Below, piece by piece: positions 31,801 to 51,221 of a stretch of DNA of 64,000 nucleotides. Origin of the DNA: Bilabrum cf. latius. Its lineage: Eukaryota. The stretch spans positions 434,001 to 498,000 of the forward strand of contig OZ237740.1 of assembly GCA_965178125.1 (NCBI GenBank). The letters run 5' to 3'. Position 1 is the first letter of the stretch, and every line of letters starts with the position of its first letter. The notes below the pieces were generated by a model. That model saw nothing but the letters and a program-made list of their open reading frames with translations, had not been told where the DNA came from and did no database searches. A program made the translations under genes and the position numbers.

Positions 31801-32480
31801 TGGCTTTTCCGATATCAAGGGGCCCTGCTCGTACTTCATGTGGCAGTAGCGGCGTAGTTGAACCATCTTTTCTGGCCTTATCCAGGCAGCCGACAGCGTA
31901 GATGCTCTCTGGAACACTCAGTGAATGCGTCAAGATGGTGCGGGTGGTAGAAACGGTAGTCCCTTCATTAGCAGACTGCTGCGAAGAATCTGAAGACGTT
32001 GATGCGCTTATTCCAGCTACAATTGGACCTAAAGCGGCGCTGAGTCCGAGCTTGGTAGCGCGCTACGATGCCACATCGACGGCATCGCTACAGTGCTGCG
32101 CAGTACTGCTCGAAGTTGCCGTTGCCCTCCTCTACAGGTCAACCTGCGCAGCCATAAATCAATTGAGGTTGCATCATATTAGTCGTTTTTATTCATTTCA
32201 TTTTCCAGTAGGCAGAATACCAGAATACCAGAATTATTTGTAGGCAGTATGACGAGTGTAATGTTGCGCGCACTTCATTTATTCAGATTTGGTTCTTGCG
32301 ACCAAATTGTGGGCGCGCGCGCCCGGAAACATCGGGGGATCCGCATCATGGCTCCCAATGCGATCAATCGGCTCGAAATACAAACGAAGCAAGCTTACAT
32401 CAATTCAAATATGATACTTAGCTCAAATTCTGTATAATCAAGATCTCACATAATCTGGGACCCACACCATCCCCGTCGGC
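28853..32480 (-). pseudogene. MACPF-like protein 1 copy B, 3' portion (exon 2 32143-28853, intron 32449-32144, end of exon 1); exon 1 split by the virophage
   Basis: Colinear with copy A at a constant offset of 15460 across exon 2. The rest of exon 1 is at 56129-56360. Confidence 0.8.
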
Positions 32481-34099
32481 TGTTATCCGCCAAAATGTGG
32501 AGTTATGATAACTCTATTTCTACTATATAGTAGAAATAGAGTTTACTTATATAAAAACTACACACATTTTGGCGGATAACATAAGAGGTCAATATTAACC
32601 ACTTCACAACATCTTAAGCCGTAGTCCTTCATAATGTCCTTCACTTGAACATAATAATTTAATAGCTATTTATTCATATATCTACCTAATTTAATACCTT
32701 CGCGCCGTTAATGTCTATCTGTTAGACCTTTACTTTACTTAATCTGTTGAGTGAATCCCTAGCCTAAGTCTTAGGATATGCCCGCCCGAAATTGCGGAAA
32801 TATATAGTCATTTAAGAATATATGTTCGCAATTCTGGGCGCGTAGGTGTATTGAGTTTTATATTATGATTTGGTTTTAAGTATCAATTGACATTTACCAC
32901 TTTAGAAAATAACTAAATAAATACTTAAAGAGATTGACAGAAGTATTAAAGTCTTTTTAATACTTCCAATGAAAAATTTAAATTAATAAATAAAACTAAA
33001 CTAATATATCAACTTAATTTATCTCTTTTTTTATTACTTGTCAATCTATACTTAAATAATTGAATATTTAAATTTAACTAGAAGGAGATATTAATCACTT
33101 TATAAAGTCTTTTATATGTCATCTCTTCAAAACTTCAAATATAAGGGTATCCCCTTAAAAATACATCCTTTAATCTATCGCCCGAAATTGCGGTAATATT
33201 ATAGCTATTCAAGATATATTTTCGCAATTCTGGGCGCGTAGGTGTATTGAGTTTTATTTTTCATAATTCTTTAAATATGTTTAAGTCCTTTGTTTGAGTA
33301 TATGATATAAAGGAATACAAAACGGGATAACTTAAAAATGATAAATATTTTGACGATGACTTTAAAATGATAAATATTTTGACGATAACTTAAAAATGAT
33401 AAATGTTTTGACGATGACTTTAAAATGACTCAATGAACTGGTTTATGTCAAGTGTATTACTTTGAAATGATTAATCACTAGATTAAATGGAAAATATAGG
33501 ATAATTAAATATGGTATAGTATAATACTAGCGCCCGAAATTGCGGTAATATATTAGGATATTAAGATATATTGTCGCAATTCTGGGCGCGTAGGTGTATT
33601 GAGTTTTATATTTTGTTAATTTTGACATAGTTATCTTATAGAGGTGTAATTTTGTAATAAAGATATTTCTAGTATGTGCTATATTAAATGTCCAGAAATG
33701 ACGGCCCGAAATTGCGGAAATATATTAGGATATTAAGAGATATTGTCGCAATTCTGGGCGCGTAGGTGTCTTCAATAATTAATAATCAACTACTTCTTTA
33801 TTTTGATTAATTTTTTTGACTTACCGTTCATTTTATTGACCACTTAACGGGATATCACAAAAAGACTTAACCACTTGACGAGATATTTTAAAATAACTAA
33901 TAATAAATATGACCGCCCCAAATTGTATCTCCAGATATGACCGCCCCAAATTGTATCTCCAGATATGACCGCCCCAAATTGTATCTCCAGATATGACCGC
34001 CCCAAATTGCGGAAATATATAAGTATCAAGAAAATTATGTTTGCAATTCTGGGCGCTCACCCGTATTCAATTTTACATATTCACTAACTCATACCACTT
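32481..34099 (+). repeat. Left terminal inverted repeat (1619 bp)
   Basis: Reverse complement of 54566-56128, with two extra copies of a 28-bp unit (atatgaccgccccaaattgtatctccag). Contains five 58-bp dyads and a ~29-bp x3.5 array at ~33330-33430. Confidence 0.95.
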
Positions 34100-34298
34100 G
34101 AAGTGGTCCATTTGATCTTGTGTTCATATTTAGAATGTCCTTTAACTTGTATCAATGTATTGAGTACTTCTTCTAACTAGTCCTTAACAAATGATTTTGT
34201 CTTATGATATGTCTTGGTAGTCTTCACCTATTTAATAACTAATTTACAAGTCTTACCGACAATATACTAAGTTAATAAATCTTGTATCATAATATATT

Positions 34299-34706
34299 AT
34301 GTATGAGATAATTATTGATGGATTCAAATATAAACCCTCTACTCGTAGAAATAAGAAATATGATGTATTCAAAAATGGTAAGTATATCACTAGCTTTGGT
34401 GATGCACGATATGCTCAATACTTTGATTTGATTGGTAAGTATGGAGATAATAACCATATTGACCCTAAAAGACGACGCCTATACTACCGAAGACACGGGA
34501 AGACTACCGATACTAATAGCTCAAAATATCACAGTCATAAAATCTTATGGGGAAGTGATAATGCTATTAAGGACTACTTAACAAAACTAGCCAATGGAGT
34601 ATTAGATGTAAAAAGGTATGTTAAAGGGGATACTTTGGAAAAATGGTTAGATGACTATAGGTCTAAAGTGGACGCAAGACTGAAACAATTAAAAATATTA
34701 AATTAA
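34299..34706 (+). CDS. Tlr6F-like protein (virophage/Polinton/Tlr family)
   Basis: PSTRRNKKYDV...SFGDARYAQY...HIDPKRRRLYYRRH...ILW pattern typical of Tlr6F; TAA stop. Confidence 0.75.
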   Translation: MYEIIIDGFKYKPSTRRNKKYDVFKNGKYITSFGDARYAQYFDLIGKYGDNNHIDPKRRRLYYRRHGKTTDTNSSKYHSHKILWGSDNAIKDYLTKLANGVLDVKRYVKGDTLEKWLDDYRSKVDARLKQLKILN

Positions 34707-34863
34707 AAAGTCAATACGCCTACGCGCCCAGAATTGCGAAAATATATCTTGAATAGCTATAATATTACCGCAATTTCGGGCGCCCAAATTTGAATCGAGC
34801 TTAAGACATCTCGTTTAATTAGACTTAAAAATAATATATTATTATAGTATATACTATATTATA

Positions 34864-35397
34864 ATGTGCTATAAATGTCGTAACTTCATAATCAATAAGC
34901 TAAAGATTAATGACTGGAATAAGATAGCCCCTCTATTAATACCAGCTGGAGAGACTAGAGAAGAAGACGGAAAGTGTATCTGTGATCACCAAATTAAGGA
35001 AGTTCATTTCGTTGAGTATCCCCCAACTGGTGATATATTTAAATTAGGTTCTGAATGTATTAATAACACATTCGAAAAGGATCATGATGTGTATAAGGCT
35101 TGTATGTATAAGACTTGTGATGTATGCTCTTGTGTTGTTAAACGTAGTAGCTGGAAAAGTCATATTAAATCCATTAAACACGAATTAAATAAAGACATAT
35201 TAAAAGATAAGAGTAGATGCACTGATTGCGATGAGTTCATTGAAAAACATAAATATAAAAAGACTTGTCTTAGTTGTTATAATAAAAAGAGGAAATACTC
35301 ACAATGTAAGAAATGTGAAAAGTATCTTATTAAACCAGGAGCCACTTTCTGGTTTTGTTATGACTGTAACTAGAAGAGAAAGAAATATAAGAAATAA
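34864..35397 (+). CDS. Cys-rich zinc-ribbon/zinc-finger protein (177 aa)
   Basis: Multiple CxxC pairs and a C2H2-like CDVC...H...H. Extends through TAG 35371 to TAA 35395. Confidence 0.75.
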
Positions 35398-35437
35398 TGT
35401 TTAATTTACGCCAACATATTATATCGTCTTTATATAT

Positions 35438-35671
35438 ATGTACGACTTGAAAATTATAATGTCTCCCAAGTTTTTAAAAGCTTGTAAAAATAATAAAGTT
35501 ATTGAAAAGGCTATAAAAGCTATTGAAGACAATTTAAAAGATGAAATTAAATTATGTTTTGATGGCAATGAGTGGGATATGTCAAATGGATCATAGACTC
35601 TTTTTTATAATCTTCAAAGTAAAGAAGAACGAGAAGAAATATTAAAGAAAAATGGAACAATTACAACATAA
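35438..35671 (+). CDS. Small hypothetical protein (77 aa, 1 TAG)
   Basis: ATG follows the CGCCAA...TATATAT motif; open to TAA with TAG read through. Confidence 0.5.
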
Positions 35672-35757
35672 ACAACTAGAAGAAATAACAGAAGACAATA
35701 TGTTATAAAATCGTTTAATTAACGCCAAAATTTATATCTACTATATATATAGTAAAT

Positions 35758-37413
35758 ATGACTAATAAAGGCAAGACATACACTAGAGGTAAAATATCTT
35801 ACACGTATGGTGATGAACCGACAAAAAATCAAAAAGATAGTGATAATTTAGAAGCCACTATTAAGGGACTACTTGATAAAGGGTTTAATGAGATACCAAC
35901 CACTAAAGAAAGTATTAAAAAGATTCCTTTATACTCTTACGTTTCGTACATCTCAAATATCAAAGGAAAGCCACTATTTAGAAGAGGTGGGGTAATTAAC
36001 TCAATATAGAAGGATGGAGACTATTTCACTTTATATAACTTAGTGAGTCGTGTTCATTTTAGCGTTCAATAGTCTAACCTAGTTCGTCTTTTTTATAAGA
36101 TGACTAAAGCTTAGACGAAAAAACTTAATAAACCAACCGGTAAATTAATTGAAGTAGAAGATGAGGACGACAAAGACAAATTTAATTATAAACCAATATT
36201 AAAGAAACTATATTATGAAGAAGGTAATGTAGTCAGTCGTGATGCGTTATATGACCTAGCTAGACAAAAAGATAAACGTATTAAAAGACGACAAGTAGAA
36301 AAGTGGTTAAATAACTAGATGCTCCACCAATTGACCAAAAAACGACCTAAACAGTCAGCAGTAAGTTCTTTTGTACCTACTAAGCCTTTCTCAATTTACG
36401 CATTGGACTTAATAGACATGCAAAAGTATTCAGACACTAATGACGGCTATAATTGGATATTAAATATAATGGATATATTCACAAAATACCTATGGAGTAT
36501 TTCATTAAAAGATAAGACATTAGTTAATATAATTCGTGAGATGAAGAAACTATTTAAGAAACCTAATTGGAGAAAACCGACTGTTATGTTAAGTGATAAT
36601 GAGTTTAATAAAGAGGCATATATTAAATTTATGAATGACAATGACATAAAACCACTATTCACCATCGCAGGAAATCCATAGTCTAATGGTGCAGTTGAAA
36701 GACTTAATAGGACTATAAAAGAATAGATTAGAAAAGACTTTGCTATTAAGAATGACAGTGATGGTGTTTGGCATACGTCATTATAGAGACTAGTAAGAGC
36801 ATATAATAAGAGAAAACACAACACTATAGGAATGTCTCCACTAGAAGCAATGAAACCCGAAAATTTAGAAGTAGTTAGATCTAGAATTGAAAATAAGAAA
36901 TTATCCAATAATTTCGACGGGAATGATAAAGATCTTAATGTAGGGGATAGAGTTAGAGTATTACTTGAGAAGAACAAGTTTAAAGGGAATTTATTCAATT
37001 GGTCTAGAGAAGTCTTCACTGTTAGATAGAAGACCAAACCAAGAAATCCCAAGTAGAGGATTAAATATAAAGTAATGGACAAAGAGGGAGAACCTCTTAC
37101 TGGATTCTTTAATGCTTCACAGTTATAGAAAATAGACAATGTAGAACACGAAGATAAGGTAAATGATGACATAGACAAGGAAAGTGAAGAGCCTGAAATT
37201 GATAATGTTGAAGGTTTAGAAGTAGAACCAGACACAATAGAGAAGTTTTTAGATAAAAGACAAAATAAAGATAGACTTATTGAATACTTAGTCAAATATA
37301 AGGGATATTCTAATAAGTTTAATGAATGGATTACCCGTAAGAAATTAGAATAGGATTATGGGAAAGACCAAATACGACCACTTGCGAAAGACTATTCTGA
37401 TAGATAGAGATAA
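35758..37413 (+). CDS. Retroviral-type (rve, DDE) integrase with C-terminal chromodomain, 551 aa
   Basis: One frame with ~12 TAGs and a final TAA. Motifs ALDLIDM, IMDIFTKY, LSDNEF, NP*SNGAVERLNRTIKE, YNKRKHNTIGMSP, VGDRVRV and chromo-like EYLVKYKGYSNKFNEW. Confidence 0.92.
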
Positions 37414-37643
37414 TTAATCTAGTAATATACTTTATGGCATAATACCAGCGCCCCAAATTGCGATAATATATTAGGATATTAAGATATATTTCCGCAATTC
37501 TGGGCGCGTAGGTGTATTGATTTTTATAATTATGTCATTTTATGTTAGCCAGTGTATAGATACGACTTTTGAAATATTAAATTTTTCTAGTATTTACCAT
37601 ATTAATATAAAACAAAGTCAAAGAAATTATTTATAATAAGTAT

Positions 37644-38324
37644 ATGGAATTGTTAAATATAACAAGATACAAAAATAAAGACCTTCTAAAAAGAGTAGTC
37701 AAGTTAAGTGAAAAGTACAAGTGGTCTCGTGATGACTTAAAAATGTTATGGATTAACAAGCATTATTCAAGTTTATAGGGTGAAATAGATGATGAAGGGG
37801 ACGAGATAGCAACTATAAATTTAGTGAGACAACCGTCTAAAATAGAACCTATCTAGTTAAAACCTCCACAATTAGAACGACAATAGGCTATATTGGAAGA
37901 TGTTGAATTAGATAGCGAAGACATAGAGGATAATAAAGAGGAAGACTATTTGAATGATACATATAGTGATACAAGTAGTGAAGTAGTGAGTGAAGTCATT
38001 GAAGAGAAACCAATTAAAGAGAAACCAAAACCACAAAACAATATTAGTGATCTTACAGTGAGTGATAAACCTGAATATGTTTATTGTGTAGAGATTAATG
38101 ATACAAAGGTATATTTTAACAAAAAGAATACATAGACTTATCCTGATGCTTTAAGAAGAGGTAAATCACACGCTGATAAAATGAGAAAGCGAGTATTAGG
38201 ACATCTTCATTTTGATGAGACCGATATGTATGACAGCAACTTATGGTATGCTAAAGTGTGCTGGGGTGATAGTGATAAAATTCATGATAACTTTACAAAG
38301 TTTAAAAATATCTTATTAAAATGA
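37644..38324 (+). CDS. Hypothetical protein (226 aa) with an acidic centre and a degenerate Tlr6F-like C-terminus
   Basis: Open from ATG 37644 to TGA 38322 with TAG read through. The C-terminal KVYF...TYPD...HADKMRKR...WYAKVCWG resembles the 34299 protein. Confidence 0.65.
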
Positions 38325-38343
38325 CCACTATATATATAGGTAA

Positions 38344-38850
38344 ATGAAAAACACAATTTGGAAGTTTTTAAATGAATACTTTGATGTCTTTAGTTTAATA
38401 CTTAAAATACGAGACGAAAACCCTAGTGATGTCATAAGTACTATAATAGCAATGTATGAAGAGAGCGAAATAGAAGACCCAAAAGAGATCCATAAACATA
38501 TGAGTGAAATACGTCATAACTTGGAACTTAGATTTAAAACAAAGTATGTTGAAGTATTAAGCACAGATCACGATGACAAAGCAGAAAGTTATCTCCATCT
38601 TAATAATATATTATGTAATATTGAAGGAGAGCAATATGTGGAGGATAGCAAAATCAAGATGTCCGAGAAAAAACAAGTATTTATAAAGACTTACGGTGAT
38701 GTGGATAAATTCAACGAGACTGTCCAAGAGATGGAACAAGAAGACGAAAAGACTAAAACAGGAGTAGAAAAAGAAATAGATCAAAAGTTAAGTCTATTAT
38801 GTAATACTTCTAAACAACCAGACAATATTTGTCTAGATTATAAATTGTAA
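38344..38850 (+). CDS. Hypothetical protein (168 aa)
   Basis: Complete ORF with CTATATATATAG just upstream and a TAA stop. Confidence 0.75.
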   Translation: MKNTIWKFLNEYFDVFSLILKIRDENPSDVISTIIAMYEESEIEDPKEIHKHMSEIRHNLELRFKTKYVEVLSTDHDDKAESYLHLNNILCNIEGEQYVEDSKIKMSEKKQVFIKTYGDVDKFNETVQEMEQEDEKTKTGVEKEIDQKLSLLCNTSKQPDNICLDYKL

Positions 38851-38962
38851 TATCAGTATGTATTTTAATTATAAAAATACAAATTGACAGGTTAGATACG
38901 ACCGCCCCAAATTGCGGATATATTATAGCTATTCAAGATATATTTTCGCAATTCTGGGCGTC

Positions 38963-39277
38963 TCACCGTGTTGATTTTTCCACACGTTTTAACTCATTCA
39001 TAATTTCTAAATCAAGTAAGCCATTAATAATACGAAAATCTTTGTAATCTTGCGCCATCTAAAACATTCCTTCATATTTAGGCAACATAGCCATTTTAAG
39101 ACCTAGGATAGACTTAATATCTTCGTAGGTAATAATCTAGTCTTTTTCTACTTCTTTTAGCTCTTCAACTTCACAAATACGAAGGTCCTTTCCATCAAAA
39201 AATTGATCAAAAGCTGTCTTTACCTTTTTTAATATATTGTTCAAACTTTTTATGTTATAAATATTATTAAAGTTCAT
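38963..39277 (-). CDS. Hypothetical protein (104 aa, 2 TAG)
   Basis: MNFNNIYNIKSL... to TGA, with the upstream CGCCAAAA/TATATATAG motif; fills the space between two dyads. Confidence 0.65.
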
Positions 39278-39433
39278 TTCTATATATATATAGTAAATAT
39301 TTTTTGGCGGAATAATTAAACTTAGGATCTAACCGCCCCAAATTGCGGAAATATTATAGCTATTCAAGATATATTTGTGCAATTCTGGGCGCGTAGGCGT
39401 ATTGACTTTTGTATTATTTTGTATTTATTTGTA

Positions 39434-40072
39434 TTATATTTGGTACCCTAACTAGAGGCAATTCCTCAATTTATCGTGAAGCTATTCGTAAGTATTATAA
39501 ATGTAATAGCTAGAAGGGTTCAACTCTTTGATATAAGAGTTACGGTCTTCTAACATAGACTTCTATTTATCTACTTTCTAATTCTTTAAAGTCTTCTAGA
39601 ATAGTGAATTAGATGGAAGACATACAACTATACTTTCTTTTTTAAATAACTCATTAGCTAGACTTAACTCTTTAGTAAAGAATATTACTCTCTTCTCGCT
39701 ACCTTCATTCAACCAGTTATCTTTTACCCATTGAAGGGCTTCTTTACTGGCTTTTCTATTAAGTATATTATAATTACCCCAATCACTTTTTAACTTACAT
39801 TCGTCTAGTTTCATAAGTAATTCGGGCTCCTAGACATATACTCCTAGAGTACTATCTAAATCAACAAGTAAACAGTCTTTAGAACTAGACCGTAATATTT
39901 GACAAGCGGTAGACTTACCACTACCTTCAGGCACACAGATACATATTTTTTTACGTTTATGTAAAGGTTTATCCCATAACCACTACCAACAAGACATACC
40001 ACCAGAGTATGCTAGAGGTAGTAAGACACTTAAACCTCCTACAACGACACTGCTTGAACTGATTCCATCCAT
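39434..40072 (-). CDS. Small P-loop NTPase/kinase-like protein with a hydrophobic N-terminus (212 aa)
   Basis: With TAG read through: MDGISSSSVVVGGLSVLLPLAYSGG..., ICICVPEGSGKSTACQIL (Walker A), then LLVDLD; TAA stop. Confidence 0.7.
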
Positions 40073-40115
40073 TTTATTATATTAATAAAAAAGATATTTC
40101 TATAATTAAACTCAA

Positions 40116-40838
40116 TTATCCTGTTAAGAAAATACAAGGTACGACTTTATACTCTACTCCATTAGCATCAGTAGAAGTACCACTTGAAAAGTCTTCATCT
40201 ACTAGAGCTTTTGCTACAATAGTCTAATCAACAGAGACTGGTTGAGGATTAGGCGCATAGACATATCCACTATCAGAACTATTAATTAAGTAATCACCCG
40301 CACTTACATCTCCTCCATTTTTATTTACTTTCACAGCTCCATCACCTAAAGATGCCACAAGTACTTTACCATCATCATGGTGTTCTCCTACATATACTCC
40401 AAAAGGTGGTGAATGTTGAGATGCTTGACTTACGACATATTCATTAGTTGTGGGTCCTTTATTAACTACACTATCAAGAGTAACCACTGACCCAATACCA
40501 GCTGGTAAACTAGAAGCAACATCACTACAAGATGCTACATGTGTACCGGTAAATGATAAGAAGTTGGTTGCTGTCATAGTACTGGTTTGAGTGCCATCAC
40601 CTGCGACATTGATTGAGATAGATGCACCTGCTGATGCTGAGTTTTTACCTATTCTCCATGTGAAAGACTTAGCATCTTCATTAGTACCACTCATAATATA
40701 TGGTAGTGATTGACCATTGAAGTTAAGTCCAAAGTTAGCGGCTCCATCAAAGCCTTCTGCTTTAATTGATTCTACTTCAATAGACTTACTCTTTAATTCA
40801 TATTCATTTTTGTTTAAGAGATTGTATATTCCTGCCAT
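40116..40838 (-). CDS. Fibre/spike-like protein with a C-terminal peptidase-G2/IMC-like chaperone domain (240 aa)
   Basis: FTGTH...PFGV...VASLGDGAVKV...GGDVSAGDYL...GY...*TIVAKAL.DEDF pattern, as in viral fibre C-termini. Confidence 0.6.
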
Positions 40839-41081
40839 TACTTATATTATATTAGCTAGACTAGATATTTTTTTTTTAAATTACGAGATTTTAAAAAGTT
40901 AGTAGTATAAGATATAGTATAATACTAGCGCCCCAAATTGCGATAATATATTAGGATATTAAGATATATTTCCGCAATTCTGGGCGCGTAGGCGTATTGA
41001 TTTTTATAATTTAGTCATTTTTAATATAGCCACCTCTTACAATGTAATATTTTTAAATTAAAATATTATAGTATATACCAT

Positions 41082-42524
41082 TTAAAGACTTCTTAATCTT
41101 GAATCTAACCAAGATATTAGAGTATCAAGTCTCTTATTAAGACCTGAACCTTCACCAGTCTTACTTTCACTTGCTCCACTAGATGATTGACCTTGTGCTT
41201 CTTGTTCTTGTTCTTCCCGTTCTTGTGCTGCTCGTGCTGCTCTTGTTCTTGCTTCTTGACCTTTACCAAGATCTTCACCTGCATCGCTTGCTACAAATTC
41301 TCCATCTGGTTGTCTTTCTAATAGTGTCCCTTCTGTCTCATCATCTAAAGGTTCATTACCTCTTGCTATCTATTCAGCAGCTTCATTCATTACATCACTT
41401 AATGCGGCTTCTCTTCGTAAGTCTGGATCTTTTTCCTTAGCTCGTCTAAGTCTTTCTTTAAGTGGAGTTCCTGACGGTTCTGCACGACTAAATGGGTTTG
41501 GTTGTCTTTTTCTAAGTGATAATTGTCTTTCAATATCTTTCTTTGCGTCATCAAACTTGATTCTATTTAAATTTACAAATCTAGTTTTACTGTCAAGTCC
41601 CGATTGTCTTCCAGTCTTAATATCTTGAAATAAGCTCTATAAATCATAATACTACATATCATCTATTGGCACACCATCATATTCATCACCTAATAGTGCT
41701 TTAAGTCTATCTTTTAGTACTGGTGCTTTAGATGTGGCTTTTGTTTTATAAATATCATTTATTGCTTCCATTCTTTTATTAAGTACATCTCTTTTTAGTT
41801 TAACTCGATCAGTTTGGCTTCGTAATCGTTCCAAAGCATAGCCTTTTGACTTTTTATCTCCTAATCTTTCTAATAGAGGTACTATTTGTGTTCCTTTTGC
41901 TCTTTGTCTAACTTTTACAAGTCTTGATGCCATTGAATTAAGTTGAGCCTTAGAGAGACCATTTAAAGTTGAATCACTTACACCTCTCTCTTTAAGAAAC
42001 TTCTTCAACTAGTCTACTGTTAAGTCATTCTCTAAGTCTTTGACATCTTTAGGTAAATTGTCTATCTCTTCTGCTTCAATAAATAAGTTATTTAATGCGT
42101 CGTTAAGTTTTGACTCAGCTTTACCTTTTTGAAATAGAGTATTAGATGAGTTCATATATGGAATATTCTATATCATCTTAGCAATAGCTTCAGCATCTTC
42201 ATCAAGTAGTTCATTATCTTTAGCTAGTCTTACAACTTGATCTATATCTGCTACTTTATACTTTTTACCTTTCTTACTGTTATCTTTAACTCTTTTTAAA
42301 GTCCTTTTCATAAGATTTGCTATTCTTTTTAATTTTCTCTTTTCTTCTAATGGCATAAAGTCCTCTTCTAATTGAATTTTTTGTTTTCGTTTAGCTTCTC
42401 CTATAGCTGCTCTTATGGCTCTCTCTTCGTTTCTTACCTTTCGTCTTGCTTGACTTGTAGGGGCTCTACTTTCCACAAGTCCATCGAGTAAGTCTTCCAA
42501 TACTGCTGTTCTTTTTTTAGACAT
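41082..42524 (-). CDS. Highly charged K/R/E-rich coiled-coil protein (480 aa)
   Basis: ORFs 42524-42168 and 42008-41652 share a frame, open to TAA at 41082 with TAG as sense. Confidence 0.7.
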
Positions 42525-42563
42525 CGTATAATTATATTATGATAATAGATAATATTATTAAAT

Positions 42564-43007
42564 TTACATACCATTTTCTTTTAATATTTTACTTGCTTCT
42601 CCTAGACTTACGCCATACTTCTTCATTACCGCACTCACTAATTTACCTCTTGCTTTAGCTTTTGGATTAGGTTTCCTCTTACGCTTAGCCTTTCCAAGTC
42701 CTACAGTCTTAAGTGCAGCATCAAGAGGGACACCAACTTCAGGGGCTACAAACTTAAGACCTGTTCGTATTGCCTTTCCTACATTACTTTTAATACCTTT
42801 TTTAATTGTTCGCCCTACTTTCTTGAATTTACGACCTACTTTTTTAAAAAAGCGTCCAACTTTTGAACCACCTTGAACACCATTCATTTGATAGTCTTCA
42901 AATAATTCAAGTAGTTTTTGCTTAAATTCGTCTTTTAAATTGTTGACTTTGGCATTAGAGGGTGATTTACCTAGTTGCTATAGTCTTTGTCTTATGAAAT
43001 CGTCCAT
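42564..43007 (-). CDS. Basic putative core/DNA-condensing protein (147 aa) with a GG motif
   Basis: ATG 43007 and one TAG. VQGG followed by SKVGRFFKKVGRKFKKVG; C-terminal ARGKLVSAVMKKYGVSLGEASKILKE. Confidence 0.65.
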
Positions 43008-43041
43008 TATAATAAAGAACTATAATATTTCTTATTAATAT

Positions 43042-43860
43042 ATGGTTAAATTAACAAAGTAGTAGCTAAAGTATTATTCACGATTTGATAATAAGATATT
43101 CAAGTCTTTTAAAATAAATAGAAGTGATATTTATTTAAATGGTTCATATTCATTTACTCATAATATGCTTTCACTTTGGGCTGGAGACATAGACCTATAC
43201 TCTCCCGTTAAATTGTCTGATGTCAATAGTGTTATAAATGAATTAAAGACCTTAAGAGGTAGTAGATTAATACATATTTATAACGTTGAATATGATGATA
43301 ATGGCGTCTCTTTAGATACATTTCTTGATACTAATAGACCTAAAATATTAAAATCTTTAAAATAGTAGAATAATCCTATGATATTCGTTGAAAGTTGGGT
43401 CTATACTGGATATATTGAAGAGGTTAGTATATTATATGATATTGGAGGTAAGATATTGAAAATGAAGCCTAAACAAGTAGCAGATAGGATGATAGATGAC
43501 ATAAAAGACTTACAAAAAGAACGAAAATATTTCAAGATATTAAAAAGACTAGATGTTATATATGACGAATTAGGGCAAAAGAAGAAACAGGAAGAGATTG
43601 AACAACTTATAAAGAATCCCGATGTAGGCTTTCTTTACTTGACTATTACAAGATTAAAAAGTTTATTACTTCCAACAGTTCCATTTAAATTAAAAAATAG
43701 AGTTATTGATAGACTTAAGAATGATGTACGTAAATTAGGACTTATTAAACCAGTATATCAATACTTTAATACGTTCAATAGTAAAGATGTAAGTATTATA
43801 ATTAAATATTTAGAAGACTAGCTCAATAAAAGGGTCGTTAAATTAGTTTCACATAATTGA
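43042..43860 (+). CDS. Pol-beta-superfamily nucleotidyltransferase-like protein (272 aa)
   Basis: YLNGSYSFTHNMLSLWAGDIDLY fits hG[GS]x9-13Dh[DE]h. One frame from ATG 43042 to TGA 43858. Confidence 0.6.
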
Positions 43861-44054
43861 ATACACCTAAACGCCCAGAATTGCAGACATAATTTTCTTG
43901 ATACTTATATATTTCCGCAATTTGGGGCGCCCTATTTTGTGAGATTTTTATTAGATTGACCCGAAAATGTAAAACCTCTAACAGCCTACGCGCCCAGAAT
44001 TGCAGAAATATATCTTAAATAGCTATAATATTACCGCAATTTGGGGCGGTCGTC

Positions 44055-44576
44055 TCACCAGTCACTATAAAATAGCTCGTCAATGTCTTCTTCGTTAAGT
44101 TTATTAACTGTTTCTGTCGGATGGAGGGGATTATCTGGTCGTATGTCATGTAAATAGCACTTAAGTCTGAAAATTTTTAGATATTCATAAATTAACTACA
44201 TTTGAAAAAAGTCTTTTTTAAATAACCTTTCCCACTCAACGGATTGTTTAAATTGTTCTATACATTCATTTATTTTCATTGAATTAGCATAGTCAAAGTT
44301 AAGTGTTTTCAAGTGATCCAAAGAAGACGATACATATCCGTTATCATTTAACGTAAAGTTCATATCACAATAGTACTTTTTACTGCAATTGATAATACAT
44401 TCTCTATACTTACGAGCAATTAGCAGACAAGTCATATAATTAGTATAGCAATCTACTCTATCAGTTGTCATCATATTACGCTACTCTTCTGCTTTCTTAT
44501 AGTACTAATTAACTTTACATGAGTACTTATAAAATGATTTAATATATCTTTTTGAAATTAGAAGTTTGTGATCCAT
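44055..44576 (-). CDS. Hypothetical protein (173 aa)
   Basis: Extends ORF 44474-44196 through TAGs at both ends to ATG 44576 and TGA 44055. Confidence 0.65.
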
Positions 44577-44721
44577 AATTCTATATATTTATATGATATT
44601 TTAATCATATTCTTAAGACTGTGCACTCTAAAATGAATATTTGAAATGGCTACTTCTCACAATATACCTTTTAAACCCACTTATTATTAGAAAAATAATA
44701 AATATTAACATATAGTATATA

Positions 44722-45789
44722 ATGTCATTATCATACGATGAAATACCAAATAGTCATTTAGTTGCTTTAAGAGAATACAAGCACAAGAAGAGGAACAAAA
44801 GCGTCTTTTTTAGTGAAGATGTAGGGGAAAAAGTCATAACTCCAGAAGATATAAGTGATGATTTACTTGAAGAGTATTATGGAAAGAGAGCAATTAAATA
44901 TGAGAAGAATAAAAAAGCATTACGTGAAGAGATGTGTAAGTTAGTGAATGGAAATAAAAAACTAGTTAGAAAGACTAACGAGTTAAGAATAGATGATAAG
45001 AGTTAGTTTGAAATAGTCCCATTCTTTGATGATGAGACCAAAAGACAAATACACTATTTAAGTGGTTAGGCTGGTGCTGGTAAGTCTTATATTGCTAAGT
45101 CTTTACTCAAGTATTATCATATGTTCATTCCAAAGAAGAGGGTTTTAGTCATTACACCAGTACAGGAAACAAATCCAACTTATTTAAAATATGGTAATTT
45201 TATTGATATTGATAAATTAGTAGCAGTAGATAGAAACGATAGTTATGATGACTTAATGAGGAAATATAAAGAAGAAAAGATATTCTTTAGGTAGGAAAAG
45301 AAGTCATTAGAACCTCATGAATTAATTAAAAGAGAGATAGAGATAGAAAGAATGAAACCAACAAGTAAAGACAAGACTAAGGCATCATTTACCACTACTC
45401 CATTGTATGAAGAATGGGCAAAATAGGGTCCTTCTGTGGTGGTATTTGATGATTATGAAGCCTTAAACGGGGATAAAAAGTAGAGGGCGTTATTCTTAAT
45501 TAAGCGTATAGGTGAAGTTGGAAGACATAGCTCAACAAATATGATAGTTATAAGTCATTTAACGAATGATTATGCGAATACTAGGTCAATAGTCATGGAA
45601 AGTCATAATATTATTTTATTTAAGAGAAATCTATGGAAATTTAGCAAATATTTAATGAAAGCATATTTAGGATTTGATGCAAGTCTTATAAATCGTGTTT
45701 ATAAATTGTTTGGAGAAGGTAATAGATGGCTATGTATTAATAAGACGTATAATTTTATCACTTGTCCTAAATAGATGTTCGTATATTAA
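44722..45789 (+). CDS. A32/FtsK-HerA family DNA-packaging ATPase (355 aa)
   Basis: Walker A YLSG*AGAGKSY, Walker B VVVFDDYE, GRH motif, ISH...TRSIVMESH; TAA stop. Confidence 0.92.
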
Positions 45790-45808
45790 TTTTCTTAGTA
45801 TTAAGTAT

Positions 45809-46357
45809 ATGGATATAACCACTGCATTAAGTCCTGAAGAGGTACAAAGACTATACTTTACATTTACAAAGTAGCATATACCAGTTATAATGTATGAAGA
45901 AATAAGTGATACTAATAACATCAGACAATTTCTAGATGAAAATCCTTTATTTGTCCTTTATTATCCTAACTTAGTAGAAGGAGCAACAATGAGCGGTCAT
46001 TATACTGCGGTCATATTTAATAAATCAAAGAATACTCTTTATTTTTGGGATAGTTATGGTCAATTACCTGATACTCATATTCCAGTTGTAGGTGGAGTCA
46101 TAGACCCATAGAAGCTATATGATAGAAGTAGTCTTCTAATAGATCACGTATTAGATGCTGGTATTAATGTTGACTATTCAAATCAAAAGAATCAATTAAT
46201 ATCAAATAACTCTGCCACATGCGGGAGGTGGTGTGTGCTCAGGATATTATTCCATCACTTGACTAATGATTAGTTTAATAGTCAATTAAAGAAGGCTTTT
46301 AAAAAGTATGGAGGAGGACTAGATAATGATGAACTTATTACTTTGATAATTAGTTAA
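45809..46357 (+). CDS. Adenain-like virion maturation cysteine protease (182 aa)
   Basis: Catalytic pattern GHYTAV / YFWDSYG / NQ...ATCGRWC; TAA stop. Confidence 0.92.
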
Positions 46358-46717
46358 TATGACATATACCATAAATTTTTAGATATTGAAAATTGATATC
46401 TATAAGGTGGCCATATTAAAAAGACTAAAATATAAAAATGAATACGGGTACGCGCCCAGAATTGCGGAAATATATCTTAATATCCTAATATATTATCGCA
46501 ATTTGGGGCGCTGGTATTATACTATATCTTAAGATACTAAATTTTTAAAATTTCGGAATATTGGATTTTTTCAATGAGTCAAATAATTAATAAAAACTTT
46601 TTTAAAAAGTCAATACGGGTACGCGCCCAGAATTGCGGAAATATATCTTAAATAGCTATAATATTACCGCAATTTGGGGCATTAGACAAGACTTATTTTC
46701 TTGATAAATGTTATAGA

Positions 46718-47644
46718 ATGGTAGAGATTCAAGAACCAGATATCTTTTATATTAACTCATAGGATACTATAACATCTATTAATACTAATAGACCAGTATC
46801 AATACATGAACAGCGTCAAGGTAATATCTTGACAAATTCACAAAACTACTTATTATCACTTGACCGATGGACTCTTAAATGTCGTATTCCTTTATTTGTA
46901 GCAAGTAAAGAAGTAAAGAATAGCGATAATTAGTCAATTTATAAGATGTCGTTTGTGAAGAAGAGTGATGGAACTACTTACACTCGTAATATTGTCTTAA
47001 CCAAGTCGTTATATTATAGTCTTAAGACCTTATCTAATGAATTTAATAATACTCTTAGTGATTTATGTGGAGATGCTAGTATTCCAACTGATAGTATAGT
47101 ATTTGAATATCACGGTAAGACTAAAACTTTTAGTTTCACCCGTTTAGCGGCTTTTACAAGTGCGTGGACTTTAAGTTTTAACTTTCCTTTATTCTCTATA
47201 TTTGAGACATTTGAATATGACGATGAAGGTAAAGACATCAAGAGTGATACTTATATAAATCTATTAGATGGATATAATGAATAGAGTGCTTCTACCTTAG
47301 ATTAGTTTCCTACTATGGAGTATATTCAAATTATTAGTCCATCACTTCCAATACTTCCAGAATTTACGCCATCATATAAAAGTACATCTAGTACAGAGAT
47401 ACAAAGTGAAAATATCTTAAGTGATTTCAAGATAGACAATACAACAGGAACGAGTTTTATTAAAATAAACTTTAGTAGTGGAGGAAATCATAGATGGCAA
47501 TAGTTCTATAGATCAGCATTTAATAGTTATAGTATAGTACCGTATTTTAGAGATACTTTTGGAAACTTATACGAAATACCCTTTACTTTTGGACAAGGAC
47601 TTAATATAAAAGCTCTATTTAAAAGTAAAAAGTTAATAACTTAA
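46718..47644 (+). CDS. Minor capsid protein (penton), 308 aa
   Basis: N-terminal FYIN...EQRQGNILTNSQNYLLSLDRW...IPLF and C-terminal ILSDF...YFRDTFGNLYEIP...IKALF resemble virophage pentons. Lies directly upstream of the MCP. Confidence 0.82.
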
Positions 47645-47686
47645 AGTAAAAAATAAATAAATATCTTTAGTCTTAATATATTTATA

Positions 47687-49573
47687 ATGTCTGATATGGA
47701 TAATGTACCTGTAGCAGCACAAAGCAAAGTCGTAGATGACGTCTCAGAACTACCAGTAACTCAAATAGCTGACGAAAAACTCAACTTTGTGGGTGATAGT
47801 CAAGCTATTACTCTAGGAACTACCCTTGGATACTCTTCCAAGTTCCAAAACCACTATGAACCAGATGGTGGTAACTCTAGCGCAACTAATGCATTTAGAA
47901 GTAATTATACTTTCGTAGTGCCATCAAATCAAGGAATGACTGACAGTAATCCCCGTCTAAGAGTTTCATTTGACGTATACATCTATGATAGTTAGAACAA
48001 TGGAGCAGTAGCTCAAACTGATATCGTCAATAAGGTAGCCCCTTCTACATTTATGGTAAATTCAATGATCACAAGTTCCACAGTTAAAATGGGAGACTTA
48101 TCTCGTAGTTCATCACCTTATCAATTAGTCAATTTAATAGCTAGAAGTCTTGACCGTGCCACTCTAGCACAAATAAGTCCTGTCTTTTAGGCTGATAACA
48201 CTTGGGAATTTAATACTGCCGCAAATGGTCTTGCTAAGTCTGTCCTTCAATGGGGTGTAAATGATGATAGTATTATGGAAGCTCGCGGTCCTGGTAAGAA
48301 TTACCGCGCAACACTTGAAAAAGTGGATGCTAATACTCCAATACCTAATAATAATGTAACACCAACTCAAGACTATGTCAAATTACATATTGAAATCTCT
48401 GAAGCACTTCTTGCACGTCCTTTCCAATATATGATGGGTGGTAATGCTAGACCTTTTGTTGATCATCCACAATTAAATGTTAATTTACAAATGAGAAATA
48501 ACTTAATTGATAAGATGTTTAATACTTCAAGTGATTGGAATGGAGACTATGCTTTTGCTTTATCCGATTGCTAGATCCATTTTGATGTCTTTACTTATAA
48601 TACTCATCTTAACTTCTTGAAGAAAGTACCTAAACAAATATTCTACAACTCTGTTGACTTTGAACTACATGAAGAGCCTAAACTTGATAATCCTATCACT
48701 ACTAAAGGTGTCCATACTTTTAATAATTATCAACTTTAGACTTGCCCTTCTTGGTTTGCTGTGTGCTTAGTTGATTCTCAATATGGAGAAGCTAGTGGTA
48801 CACCTCATAGAACACTTGCCATTAACAATATTAAAGTACAACTTAGGTCTTAGGGTTCTATTTTAGGAGAACTTACACAAGACGATATCTTTAGACTTAG
48901 TGAAAGAAATGGATCAAATAGTGAGTATGCTTCTTTTACTAACTTAGATGTAACTGTAGGAGGTGCTTCTAAAGTATACGGATCTAATGGCTGGCTCTTA
49001 TTTAGACTTAGCGATTTAAATACTCCTGAAACTATTCAAAGCAACAGTGCTGACCCTATTAGTATTCGTGTTCAAGTAGCCTATGACGAACCCCCAACCG
49101 CTGCTATGTCTCAAGGATATAAAGCTCAATTATTCTGTGCCTATGACAAGATTATCGTGAATACTAGAGGTGCCGCTATTGAATGGCGTGAAGATAGTGC
49201 TTCTGTTGACCCTGAGAAAGTGGCTAAACCTTCTAATTATACATTTTCTAATATGAACTACTCTAAGAACGTATTAGGTGGAAGACGTCGTAAAGTGATG
49301 CAATTCTTTAAGAGAGCCTTTAACAAAGCTAAAGACTTAGGACGTAAAGTGGTAGACTTTGGAAAGAAAGCTAAAGCTAAATTTGATAAAGTGAAACCAG
49401 CTCTTCGTAAAGCAAGACAAGCAGTAAGTGAATACTTACCCGATGAAGTGAATGACTTAGCTGAACGTGTTGGAGCAGGTCTTTTAACTAGTGGTGGAAG
49501 TCTTTTGACCAGTGGAGGTAAGAAACTAACTAAGGCTCAACTTATGAAACTTAGAAAGTAGCTCAATATGTGA
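47687..49573 (+). CDS. Major capsid protein (double jelly-roll, virophage type), 628 aa
   Basis: ORFs 47687, 48275 and 49106 share a frame joined by TAGs, ending at TGA 49571. Size, position after the penton, and VLGG followed by a basic C-terminal extension fit virophage MCPs. Confidence 0.82.
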
Positions 49574-49760
49574 GTCGTAAATTATTAATTAATATTTAAA
49601 AGTTATAAATATTGACTAAATTTAAAAACTCAATACGGGTACGCGCCCAGAATTGCGAAAATATATCTTGAATAGCTATAATATTACCGCAATTTGGGGC
49701 GGTCATACCTTAAGACTAGTTTAAATATTACGCCAAAAAATATCCACTATATATATAGTT

Positions 49761-50183
49761 ATGGCAGCAGTATCACCGTGTGAAGACTTACTTTATATGG
49801 AGTATTCATTCTTATTCTTACCACATAGAGAAGACCCAACACTTAAATCTCAAAAGGTTTACTTAGATGATGAACTTGAAGGAGATCCTGAAGACATTGT
49901 AATAGATAAAGATTAGATACAAGTAAATAATAGAGGTCATATAAAGACATATGTAAGTGAAGGAGGCTTTACAAAGTTAAAGGTAGGATAGATAATTGAA
50001 GAGATGGAGCAAGAGGTGCGTAATTAGAATGGTATTGCTTATGATTGTATTTTTTATCATAAAGTTGAACACGACACGAGCACAGATATTTATAAAGTAG
50101 TATGGGGATGGCACAAAGCAGACTTTCCAGTGGATATTTTTGATCCTGCTAGCGTGTATAAGAAACCCCCTAATATGGATTAA
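49761..50183 (+). CDS. Hypothetical protein (140 aa, 3 TAG)
   Basis: MAAVSPCEDLLY... to TAA; upstream CGCCAAAA/TATA motif; lies between two dyads. Confidence 0.7.
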
Positions 50184-50317
50184 TTATTAAAAACTCAATA
50201 CGGGTACGCGCCCAGAATTGCGGAAATATATCTTAAATAGCTATAATATTACCGCAATTTCGGGCGGTCATATGTCTTAATAATAAAGTTATTAATATTA
50301 AGTCATATCTATGTAAT

Positions 50318-50640
50318 AAAAAAAAAATTCTTTGAGCTAGTAATTATACCGATGGTTTGACTACTTGGCGAAGTCATTCGTAAGTCATTGTTGTAGCGGG
50401 GCCAGAATGTGAACTGATGCACCTGAAACCCTATTAAGTCTTACGACTAAGTCTGCTACAACCACTTACGACTACTTCTACAGTATCCAAACTCCCTTCA
50501 AAGACTTGCAAGACGTGTGCTTTGTCATGAAAATGACTTACAGAACGACTTACGGCGATGTCAGTGGCGGGAATCGAACCCACGACCTTGACTTTGTGAA
50601 ACAATCACGATATCACTAGACCAAGACCACAACGCACCAA
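50318..50640 (-). ncRNA. Putative RNA polymerase III-type, tRNA-like non-coding RNA
   Basis: The minus strand has an A-box-like TGGTCTAGTGA, a T-arm/B-box GTGGGTTCGATTCCCGC and a T10 run at 50327-50318. The interval is GC-richer than its surroundings, has no obvious ORF and has no canonical acceptor stem. Confidence 0.55.
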
Positions 50641-50808
50641 GAGGTAAAAAATATTATATTCAAATAAATTTAAAAATTCAATACACCTACGCGCCCAGAA
50701 TTGCGGAAATATATCTTAAATAGCTATAATATTACCGCAATTTCGGGCGGTCATATCTTAAGACTAGTTTATTACTTTCGCCAAAAAATATCCACTATAT
50801 ATATAGTA

Positions 50809-51159
50809 ATGTCAGATAAAGAAGATATCAAAATTGAACTATCTCAAAATTTTATAGATGAATGTCTTGTTAAAGGTGTAGGTGTCGATGATGTAGTCAG
50901 TAGTATAGGTAAAAGTATTGAGAATCACTTTGATAAATATGTATGGATGAAACCAAAAGACAAAGGTGATGGTTATCGTTAGAATGTCTTTAGTTTTAAA
51001 TTCGACAATATTATCAAGAAACTCGAAAGTACATTGGAACAGTTAGAATATGAAGAGCAAGTGAAACACGTCTAGGAGCTGATGTATCGTGTTGAAAGAA
51101 GTGAATGTGAAAGGAAGAAGAGAGAAGAAAAAATTAAAAAGACAAAAAGAGACCACTAA
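50809..51159 (+). CDS. Hypothetical protein (116 aa)
   Basis: MSDKEDIKIEL... open to TAA 51157 with TAG read through; upstream promoter-like motif. Confidence 0.65.
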
Positions 51160-51221
51160 GTCATTTTATATAAGGTATGTATTATTAAGTCTTATTAAGT
51201 TTTTTATTAATAAGTCATAAT

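What the first reader, a model, noticed from the sequence alone, without database searches (positions are those of the whole stretch)
50318..50640. Virophage-borne Pol III-type, tRNA-like structured RNA (possible VA-RNA analogue)
Seen: an ORF-free, GC-richer cassette between two dyads. On the minus strand it has an A-box-like TGGTCTAGTGA, an anticodon-like stem-loop (TGATT-GTTTCACAA-AGTCA), a T-arm with B box GGTTCGATTCC, ~230 nt of further sequence and a T10 run (an internal T4 could end it earlier). Long inverted segments occur (tcgtaagt...gttgtagcgg near 50378-50399 vs ctgctacaac...acttacga near 50453-50471, with alternative partners at 50532-50554). Known: adenovirus VA RNAs and gammaherpesvirus TMERs are Pol III RNAs with tRNA-type internal promoters. 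Inference: a nuclear-expressed viral ncRNA, possibly active from the integrated state.
Basis: partly seen in the sequence, partly recalled or inferred. Interest (0 to 1): 0.75.

Follow-up and report, generated by a model that had tools for sequence, protein, structure and literature searches.

The report
Degenerate tRNA-like cassette in a virophage
An integrated virophage carries a 330-base non-coding unit that starts with a half-decayed tRNA look-alike and continues with hairpins; it may be a small structured RNA, but it is not a working tRNA and no expression data were available.

Summary
The described sequence is there. Window 32481-56128 is an intact integrated virophage: 1473-nt perfect inverted ends, a 5-bp target duplication, and a paralogous empty site in the same window.

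Its largest internal ORF-free gap holds the cassette. On the minus strand there is an 84-nt tRNA-like module (50642-50559). It has a perfect T arm with B box, an acceptor-like stem, an anticodon-like arm with a 9-nt loop, and no D arm. A 230-nt hairpin-rich body follows, with T4 at +26 and T10 at the end.

ARAGORN (default settings) and Rfam do not call a tRNA, and only the 3' half resembles real tRNAs. The cassette is single-copy in the window. In three public runs from two studies it has the same depth as the neighbouring genes. A 30-nt hypervariable patch inside it keeps a small hairpin through changes on both sides, which is suggestive only.

No RNA data and no diverged relatives were available. 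My best reading (0.4) is a tRNA-derived non-coding transcription unit, a variant of the tRNA and other RNA genes already reported in virophages and polinton-like viruses. A functionless relic is nearly as likely. The VA-RNA analogy is unsupported.

In passing: the virophage and a host gene read TAG as glutamine.

The parts
32481..56128 (.). Integrated virophage that carries the cassette (context). Termini TG..CA, 1473-nt perfect inverted ends, 5-bp target duplication TCGGC.
   Evidence: (I1).
50166..50265 (+). Dyad repeat copy on the low-coordinate side of the cassette (arms 50210-50221 and 50254-50265). One of 22 copies, all inside the element.
   Evidence: (D1).
50318..50327 (-). T10 run on the minus strand (A10 on plus), a possible Pol III terminator. 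It is T9 in the other strains (50327 A>T).
50328..50558 (-). Body: ORF-free, built from repeats of the 7-8-mer GACTTAC(G) / GTAAGTC in both orientations, which give alternative hairpins.
50378..50471 (-). Long imperfect hairpin (arms 50378-50396 and 50453-50471) with a 56-nt branched loop.
   Evidence: (I1).
50399..50431 (-). Hypervariable patch forming a small hairpin. Three haplotypes (window, X1, X2/X3). Pairs 50424-50404 and 50425-50403 change on both sides and stay paired.
   Evidence: tables 3-4.
50524..50537 (-). Small hairpin GUCAU-UUUC-AUGAC. It contains T4 (50533-50530), 26 nt after the tRNA-like 3' end.
50559..50642 (-). tRNA-like module, 84 nt: acceptor-like stem (50642-50635 with 50566-50559), a 27-nt D region without a stem that holds a tandem TGGTCT TGGTCT, an anticodon-like arm, variable loop AGGTC and a T arm.
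50613..50623 (-). A-box-like TGGTCTAGTGA. Its TAGTG also pairs with CACTG of the 3' acceptor strand (alternative D-armless fold).
50589..50607 (-). Anticodon-like arm: a 5-bp stem with the 9-nt loop GUUUCACAA. Alternatively a 7-nt loop UUUCACA closed by a G.A mismatch.
50567..50583 (-). T arm GTGGG-TTCGATT-CCCGC, holding the B box at 50570-50580. The U50582.G50568 wobble is U-A in the other strains.
50649..50748 (+). Dyad repeat copy on the high-coordinate side, followed by the promoter-like motif of the next gene (ORF 50809-51159).

Best explanation
The cassette is a tRNA-derived non-coding unit of the virophage, read from the minus strand.

Its 5' module (50642-50559) descends from a tRNA gene. 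It has lost the D arm and the 7-nt anticodon loop, so it cannot decode. It keeps the parts that matter for making and processing a tRNA-like RNA:
- an intact B box and T arm;
- an acceptor-like stem, together forming an acceptor/T-arm minihelix of the kind RNase P, RNase Z and the CCA-adding enzyme are known to recognise (established knowledge, not tested here);
- an A-box-like motif at the usual distance;
- T-runs at +26 and +232.

Inferred mechanism: in the integrated state Pol III starts near 50642 and ends at T4 (about 113 nt) or T10 (about 325 nt). Alternatively, during co-infection the giant virus's polymerase reads the unit like the other dyad-bounded genes. The tRNA-like head is then cleaved off, releasing the hairpin-rich body.

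Shown: the anatomy, the tRNA ancestry of the 3' half, single-copy status, and retention in other strains. Inferred: transcription, strand, processing and any function.
For: - The T arm with B box is beyond chance. Infernal gives a local T-arm hit at E 0.0038 in the 121-nt search.
- The 24-nt variable-loop/T-arm stretch is identical to that of real tRNAs. At least 120 prokaryote stretches were found, and ARAGORN called a tRNA on 106 of the 123 matched segments.
- The acceptor-like stem pairs at 7 of 8 positions.
- It is the largest internal ORF-free gap in a compact element and is bracketed by the same dyad units that bound the genes.
- A cassette contig is present in 3 of the 4 runs laid (2 studies), at the depth of the neighbouring genes: X3 448 against 504-519, X1 1069 against 1225-1296.
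- The only change in the tRNA-like part turns a U.G pair into U-A.
- In the hypervariable patch, two adjacent pairs change on both sides and stay paired (A-U to C-G, C-G to G-C), and a third (50420-50411, G-C to C-G) does so in my hand pairing.
- Wobble pairs in these stems are G.U on the minus strand and would be A.C on the plus strand (my reading).
- tRNA genes and other small-RNA genes are known cargo of virophages and PLVs.
Against: - No transcript evidence of any kind; no RNA run was listed.
- ARAGORN default settings: 0 genes. Rfam gathering threshold: 0 matches. No tRNA model hit beyond the T arm.
- The 53-nt 5' half is no more like tRNAs than shuffled sequence: best alignment score 8, against a shuffle-best mean of 5.7 and maximum of 11.
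- BLAST hits to phage tRNAs cover only query positions 41-87.
- The A-box pattern alone is at chance.
- Fold z-scores: minus strand -1.42, plus strand -2.75, tRNA-like part +0.30. Thermodynamics therefore favours neither a structure nor the minus strand.
- The strains compared are about 99.9% identical, so retention says little about selection.
- Three double-sided changes that all stay paired have a chance of about (4/9)^3 = 0.09 (my arithmetic). They could also arise from template switching at a quasi-palindrome.
- The X1 haplotype folds in a different register.
- Both flanking dyads have the orientation seen after plus-strand genes.
Confidence: 0.4

Rival explanations
1. Functionless relic: a tRNA gene, with some flanking DNA, once captured by the virophage lineage from host or giant virus and now decaying. 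The body and T-run are captured flank or filler between two tandem dyads.
For: - tRNA detectors fail.
- The 5' half is not tRNA-like.
- The D region carries a tandem duplication and the anticodon loop has 9 nt.
- Tandem dyads with ORF-free spacers occur elsewhere in the element, at spacings of 119-396 nt.
- PLV-borne rRNA captures were judged probably non-functional by their authors.
- The fold is not significant on the minus strand.
Against: - The element is otherwise compact and intact: all 19 ORFs are open with TAG read as sense, and the inverted ends are perfect.
- The T arm and acceptor pairing are still clean, and the one change there improves pairing.
- The hairpin in the variable patch is kept through double-sided changes.
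Confidence: 0.33
2. DNA-level element rather than an RNA: for example a replication origin or protein-binding region built from iteron-like 7-8-mers and hairpins, or a TFIIIC-binding B box acting as a chromatin boundary for the provirophage.
For: - The GACTTAC/GTAAGTC motif family recurs in both orientations within about 180 nt.
- The plus strand folds as well as or better than the minus strand, as expected for strand-neutral DNA hairpins.
- The element replicates with a primase-helicase and would need an origin.
Against: - Nothing ties the motif to a protein.
- A tRNA-type T arm with variable loop and acceptor strand is not explained by an origin.
- The wobble pairs fit only the minus strand read as RNA (my reading).
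Confidence: 0.12
3. A host tRNA-derived SINE or other retroposed insertion that landed between two dyads.
For: - A tRNA-related head, an unrelated body and a terminal T-run within about 325 nt.
- A possible flanking 7-nt repeat TAAAAAA at 50317-50323 and 50645-50651 (my reading). It is low-complexity and not significant.
- GC is locally higher than in the element.
Against: - No second copy in the window, including about 40 kb of host DNA.
- No excess depth over the flanking virophage genes in X1 and X3 at 80% likeness.
- No poly(A) tail on the sense strand.
- 0 matches in JGI metagenomes and IMG/VR.
Confidence: 0.07
4. An oddly built but working tRNA, for example a D-armless form with anticodon UCA, or a form with an expanded anticodon loop, supplying a codon that is rare in the GC-rich host.
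For: - ARAGORN's mitochondrial mode draws a D-armless tRNA(UCA).
- Virophage and host codon usage differ strongly, for example AAA 69.8 against 7.3 per 1000 and GAA 48.7 against 12.7 per 1000.
- Virophage tRNAs are thought to compensate codon usage.
Against: - TGA ends 5 of the 19 ORFs and is never needed in frame, so a UGA reader has no use here.
- In that fold position 37 is C and the loop is closed by a G.A mismatch.
- No CUA anticodon can be drawn, although TAG is the recoded codon.
- D-armless cytoplasmic tRNAs are not known (recalled).
Confidence: 0.03

Closest known systems
tRNA genes and other small-RNA genes carried by virophages and polinton-like viruses. Sources: Paez-Espino et al. 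2019, PMC6905037, passages read; the cryptophyte PLV study of 2025, PMC12220804, section 16 read.
   Same: A tRNA-type sequence sits as a separate unit in a virophage genome that has an rve integrase and is integrated in a host of very different GC content.
   Different: The reported genes are tRNAs called by ARAGORN or Rfam. This one fails both, lacks a D arm, has a 9-nt loop, and is followed by 230 nt of hairpin-rich sequence. The supplementary tables of both papers, which list the individual tRNAs, could not be seen.
TMERs of murid gammaherpesvirus 68 (Pol III tRNA-like RNAs fused to pre-miRNA hairpins). Recalled, not read here.
   Same: A non-decoding tRNA-like head with A/B-box-type promoter elements, downstream hairpins, and T-run terminators.
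   Different: The hairpins here are not pre-miRNA-like: 8+8 bp arms with a 56-nt branched loop. No processing or expression data exist, there is no sequence relationship, and there is one copy rather than an array.
Adenovirus VA RNAs (recalled; Rfam holds a VA family).
   Same: A Pol III type-2 promoter logic inside a viral genome would be shared if the cassette is transcribed.
   Different: No Rfam hit to any family beyond the T arm. No compact VA-type fold: z -1.42. VA acts on PKR in vertebrate cells, and nothing here points to that.
tRNA-derived SINEs.
   Same: A tRNA-related head, an unrelated body, and a length of about 300 nt.
   Different: Single copy in all data available. No A-rich tail.

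Membership tests
Canonical tRNA | Cloverleaf recognised by standard detectors | tested here: not met
   ARAGORN default finds 0 genes in the window and in the region. Calls appear only at lowered thresholds or in mitochondrial mode. Rfam gathering threshold: 0 matches.
Canonical tRNA | D arm and 7-nt anticodon loop | tested here: not met
   The D region is 27 nt without a stem. The loop is 9 nt, or 7 nt closed by a G.A mismatch with C at position 37.
Canonical tRNA | T arm with GTTCGANTC loop, plus an acceptor stem | tested here: met
   5-bp T stem with loop TTCGATT. The acceptor-like stem pairs at 7 of 8 positions.
Pol III type-2 (tRNA-type) transcription unit | Internal B box | tested here: met
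   GGTTCGATTCC at 50580-50570: 1 match, 0.09 expected.
Pol III type-2 (tRNA-type) transcription unit | Internal A box at about 30-60 nt upstream of the B box | tested here: inconclusive
   TGGTCTAGTGA lies 43 nt upstream of the B box, but the relaxed pattern is at chance in the window: 4 found, 4.24 expected. The consensus is recalled.
Pol III type-2 (tRNA-type) transcription unit | Downstream T-run terminator | tested here: met
   T4 at 50533-50530 and T10 at 50327-50318 on the minus strand.
Pol III type-2 (tRNA-type) transcription unit | A Pol III-dependent transcript | not testable with these tools
   No RNA run was listed, and the runs are held only as contigs.
Adenovirus VA RNA | Match to the family model or its compact fold | tested here: not met
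   No Rfam match in E-value mode up to 10 other than three chance-level hits. Fold z -1.42.
TMER-type tRNA-like plus pre-miRNA RNA | Pre-miRNA-like hairpins directly after the tRNA-like part | tested here: inconclusive
   Hairpins exist, but the main one has short arms and a 56-nt branched loop. The small-RNA data needed are not available.
tRNA-derived SINE | Many dispersed copies in the host genome | tested here: not met
   One copy in 64 kb. Depth equals that of the flanking single-copy virophage genes in X1 and X3. The whole host genome was not available.
Virophage (Sputnik/mavirus-type) provirus | V20-type major capsid protein, packaging ATPase, cysteine protease, integrase, inverted ends, target duplication | tested here: met
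   Pfam PF22031, rve+Chromo, Prim-Pol and AAA hits; the protease match is weak. 1473-nt inverted ends. TCGGC duplication and an empty site.

The most novel reading that the evidence does not exclude
The provirophage makes, from its own tRNA-type internal promoter, a nuclear Pol III RNA while all its protein genes wait for a giant virus. RNase P and RNase Z cut off the tRNA-like head and release a hairpin RNA. The 30-nt hypervariable hairpin of that RNA evolves fast under selection, for example as a guide or decoy aimed at the giant virus or at host silencing. It would be a TMER-like system in a virus of protists.
Probability: 0.12. Interest if true: 0.8.

Novelty: new variant of a known kind. 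Interest (0 to 1): 0.42.

Why it matters
Virophages integrated in protist genomes are thought to stay silent until a giant virus arrives. A unit that host Pol III could read in the integrated state would be the first sign of provirophage activity independent of the giant virus, and a new kind of viral small RNA outside animal viruses.

If it is only a decayed tRNA gene, it still documents tRNA capture by an AT-rich virophage living in a GC-rich host. That host and the virophage both read TAG as glutamine, which is worth reporting in its own right.

Tried and rejected
Searches for related sequence:
- IMG/VR: capsid protein (nothing); capsid alignment (56 pattern matches, none confirmed by tblastn); T-arm 29-mer (0 matches); dyad 16-mer (36 contigs with a single match each). 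I did not inspect those 36 contigs. I took them for chance because the element has 22 copies.
- JGI metagenomes: T-arm pattern and dyad pattern, 0 matches each.
- Prokaryote genome contigs: dyad pattern, 0 matches.
- No whole genome is held for this window.

Expression: no RNA holder was listed. All runs laid were contigs, so starts, ends and strand cannot be read.

Joints that skip the cassette (50266 to 50673 and 49704 to 50666, X2 only, sides of 25-35 nt) begin and end in the repeated dyads. I did not count them as cassette-less variants.

Parent tRNA: the 3' segment is shared mainly with tRNA-Lys(UUU) in prokaryotes (58 of 106 ARAGORN calls; then Met 14, Arg 11, Thr 14). The 5' half matches none above shuffles. 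My impression that the D loop and the UUUCAC loop resemble tRNA-Glu(UUC) rests on recall only and is dropped.

Amber suppressor: no CUA anticodon arm can be drawn around the CTA in the A-box-like motif (by hand).

Meaning of TAG from capsid homologues: across the 35 relatives beyond the two close ones (P0004-P0038), the 6 TAG columns are variable and mostly polar (K 31, N 26, T 16, R 15, S 15 of 210 cells). This is not decisive.

Earlier findings of this scan: nothing on this genome or this sequence.

Full report
**Context**

The window is a mosaic. About 60% GC host DNA surrounds a 23.6-kb stretch of about 30% GC. That stretch, 32481-56128, has 1473-nt perfectly complementary inverted ends (I1) and TG..CA termini.

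A 98%-identical paralogous copy of the flanking host DNA lies in the same window and is uninterrupted at 18116-18120. The filled site carries TCGGC on both sides, a 5-bp target duplication.

With the standard code the element has only short ORFs. With TAG read as sense it has 19 ORFs of up to 932 codons. Among them Pfam finds:
- a Sputnik V20-type major capsid protein (PF22031);
- an rve integrase with a chromodomain;
- a Prim-Pol primase;
- an AAA ATPase;
- a weak cysteine-protease match.

It is an intact integrated virophage of a lineage with few relatives. There are two capsid proteins at 86-88% identity, on 2-kb contigs. The next best of 60 hits in 1.84 billion representatives is at 32% identity.

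**The observation**

The cassette occupies the largest internal ORF-free gap: 625 nt, against at most 360 nt for the others. No credible ORF appears under either code.

It sits between two copies of a ~100-nt dyad repeat. That repeat occurs 22 times in the element and nowhere in the host part. The arm pattern gives 48 matches against 1.41 expected.

The dyad on the high-coordinate side is followed by the same promoter-like motif (CGCCAAAAAATATCCACTATATATATAGT + ATG) that precedes four other genes. The dyad on the low-coordinate side lacks it.

**How tRNA-like is it?**

- ARAGORN at default settings finds nothing in the window or in the region.
- Rfam at gathering thresholds finds nothing.
- In permissive mode the only tRNA-clan hit is an 18-nt T-arm match, E 0.0038 in a 121-nt search.
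- At lowered thresholds ARAGORN draws two folds:
  - An 86-nt fold closed by TCTTGGTG (50642-50635) and CACTGACA (50566-50559), 7 of 8 positions paired.
  - A D-armless mitochondrial-type fold closed by TAGTG and CACTG, with anticodon UCA.
- In both folds the T arm is perfect and the variable loop is AGGTC.
- The region between the acceptor strand and the anticodon-like arm is 27 nt, holds a tandem TGGTCT TGGTCT, and forms no D stem.
- The anticodon-like stem closes a 9-nt loop.
- The B box is beyond chance (1 match, 0.09 expected). The A-box-like motif alone is not (4 found, 4.24 expected).
- BLAST against 50,697 phage records gives 323 records with a match. None covers 80% of the query, and the best hits are confined to query positions 41-87, over tRNAs of several types.
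- The 24-nt variable-loop/T-arm stretch is identical in at least 120 prokaryote stretches. ARAGORN called 106 tRNAs on the 123 matched segments: Lys(UUU) 58, Met 14, Thr 14, Arg 11, others 9.
- The 53-nt 5' half aligns to those tRNAs no better than shuffled versions do.

So the 3' half is genuine tRNA sequence and the 5' half is degenerate. The module cannot be a standard decoding tRNA.

**Is it the amber suppressor?**

It is not, even though TAG is recoded here. No CUA anticodon arm can be drawn. The alternative UCA reading makes no sense, because TGA ends 5 of the 19 ORFs.

**Structure**

- The whole cassette folds at -87.1 kcal/mol on the minus strand (z -1.42; 7 of 100 shuffles fold as well).
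- It folds at -82.2 kcal/mol on the plus strand (z -2.75; 1 of 100).
- The tRNA-like part alone is at z +0.30.

Thermodynamics therefore gives no support for the minus strand.

The body is built from a 7-8-mer family (GACTTACG and its complement) in both orientations. These repeats give the long hairpin 50378-50471 and its alternative partners.

**Other strains**

Six of the seven listed public runs (two studies, two coded organisms) hold 85-87% of the sampled words of 48500-52000. I laid four of the seven.

X1, X2 and X3 hold the virophage at about 99.9% identity: 2-3 differences in 2652 nt of the capsid gene and 4-5 in 3709 nt of the primase gene. X7 holds only short pieces, mostly below 90% identity.

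In each of the three, a contig covers the cassette at the depth of its neighbours. That argues against a dispersed repeat.

The cassette differs from the window copy at only three places:
- 50327, where T10 becomes T9.
- 50568, which turns the T-stem U.G into U-A.
- A patch at 50399-50428, with 12 substitutions and two single-base indels. This patch exists as three haplotypes.

A second patch of this kind lies in the last codons of the neighbouring ORF, 50108-50154.

I applied the listed differences to the window sequence in a script and folded the results. The patch is a small hairpin in each haplotype.
- In X2/X3 the MFE stem pairs 50431-50423 with 50399-50405.
- In the window copy the same register is 0.5 kcal above the MFE.
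- In that register, pairs 50424-50404 (A-U to C-G) and 50425-50403 (C-G to G-C) change on both sides.
- Pair 50420-50411 (G-C to C-G) does so in my hand pairing.
- X1 folds in another register.

By my arithmetic, three such changes all staying paired has a chance of about 0.09. Template switching at a quasi-palindrome could also produce them. I count this as suggestive only.

The wobble pairs in these stems are G.U on the minus strand and would be A.C on the plus strand. This is the only hint for the strand beyond the orientation of the tRNA-like part itself.

**What it most likely is**

tRNA genes were reported in 18 high-quality virophage genomes, including Gln tRNAs and an ochre suppressor (PMC6905037, passages read). 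A scan of 8300 PLV and virophage genomes found 558 tRNAs, plus 5S rRNA, snRNA and snoRNA matches. Its authors propose codon compensation for the tRNAs and call the captured rRNA genes probably non-functional (PMC12220804, section 16 read).

An AT-rich virophage in a GC-rich host has every reason to pick up tRNAs. Codon usage differs up to tenfold for AAA and fourfold for GAA. The simplest origin of the cassette is therefore a captured tRNA gene.

What it is now is open. I give:
- 0.40 to a tRNA-derived non-coding RNA unit, made by Pol III or the viral polymerase, whose head serves as promoter and processing signal;
- 0.33 to a functionless relic;
- 0.12 to a DNA-level element;
- 0.07 to a SINE-type insertion;
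- 0.03 to an odd working tRNA.

The VA-RNA analogy has no support. The TMER layout is the nearer analogy, but the hairpins are not pre-miRNA-like.

I found no paper on a Pol III or tRNA-like RNA of a virophage in three searches: 'virophage' + 'tRNA-like', 'virophage' + 'RNA polymerase III', and 'virophage' + 'tRNA' + 'stop codon' (listings only, apart from the two papers named above).

**TAG as glutamine**

This was seen in passing, but it matters for reading the element.
- 77 in-frame TAG codons occur in 5546 codons, in 17 of the 19 ORFs.
- The stop codons are TAA 14, TGA 5, TAG 0.
- CAG is nearly absent (7, against CAA 134), while GAG and AAG are common.
- TAG codon 308 of the integrase is the Q of GNPQS. 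It aligns with the GNPQS of a solved retroviral-type integrase core (4pa1_A).
- The host MACPF gene has 3-4 in-frame TAG codons in a 1101-codon frame. At one of them the paralogue has CAA.

Searches for 'virophage' with 'genetic code' + 'UAG', with 'alternative genetic code', and 'endogenous virophage' with 'stop codon reassignment' gave no report of a recoded virophage (two of the papers checked by passages).

Noticed in passing
window 32481-56128 and 13396-16698 / 28856-32158: The virophage reads TAG as a sense codon, most likely glutamine. There are 77 in-frame TAG codons, stops are only TAA or TGA, CAG is nearly absent, and a TAG stands at the conserved Q of the integrase GNPQS motif. The host MACPF gene also has in-frame TAG codons, one of them replaced by CAA in its paralogue. 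I found no report of a TAG-recoded virophage in three paper searches.
   Followed up: partly
window 32784-55825 (22 copies): A ~100-nt dyad repeat (arms GCCCAGAATTGC / GCAATTTSGGGC, 32-nt AT-rich loop) bounds nearly every gene. It is absent from the host DNA. Its orientation mostly follows the strand of the gene it trails, so it looks like a 3'-end hairpin signal of the kind known from mimivirus transcripts (recalled).
   Followed up: partly
window 50108-50154: The last ~15 codons of the 140-codon ORF next to the cassette differ at 17 of 47 bases between the window copy and the strains in runs X1-X3, although the genomes are otherwise about 99.9% identical. This is a second hypervariable patch, unexplained.
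   Followed up: no
window 18116-18120 vs 32476-32480 / 56129-56133: A segmental duplication of the host locus (about 98% identical) gives an empty site for the virophage insertion inside the same window, with the target duplication TCGGC.
   Followed up: yes
window 35730-35757, 38315-38343, 39278-39310 (-), 49733-49760, 50781-50808: Five genes share a promoter-like motif CGCCAAAA..TAT..ACTATATATATAG directly before the ATG. Other genes have a TAATATAAT-type motif instead, suggesting two promoter classes.
   Followed up: no
window 4926-10110: A 55-bp satellite, about 94 copies at 93% match, GC 0.68 with strong strand skew, in the host DNA.
   Followed up: no
runs X1, X3: The virophage stands at about 1200x in a run of 200 million letters and about 500x in one of 1839 million. 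It is either present in many copies per genome or was replicating in those cultures.
   Followed up: no
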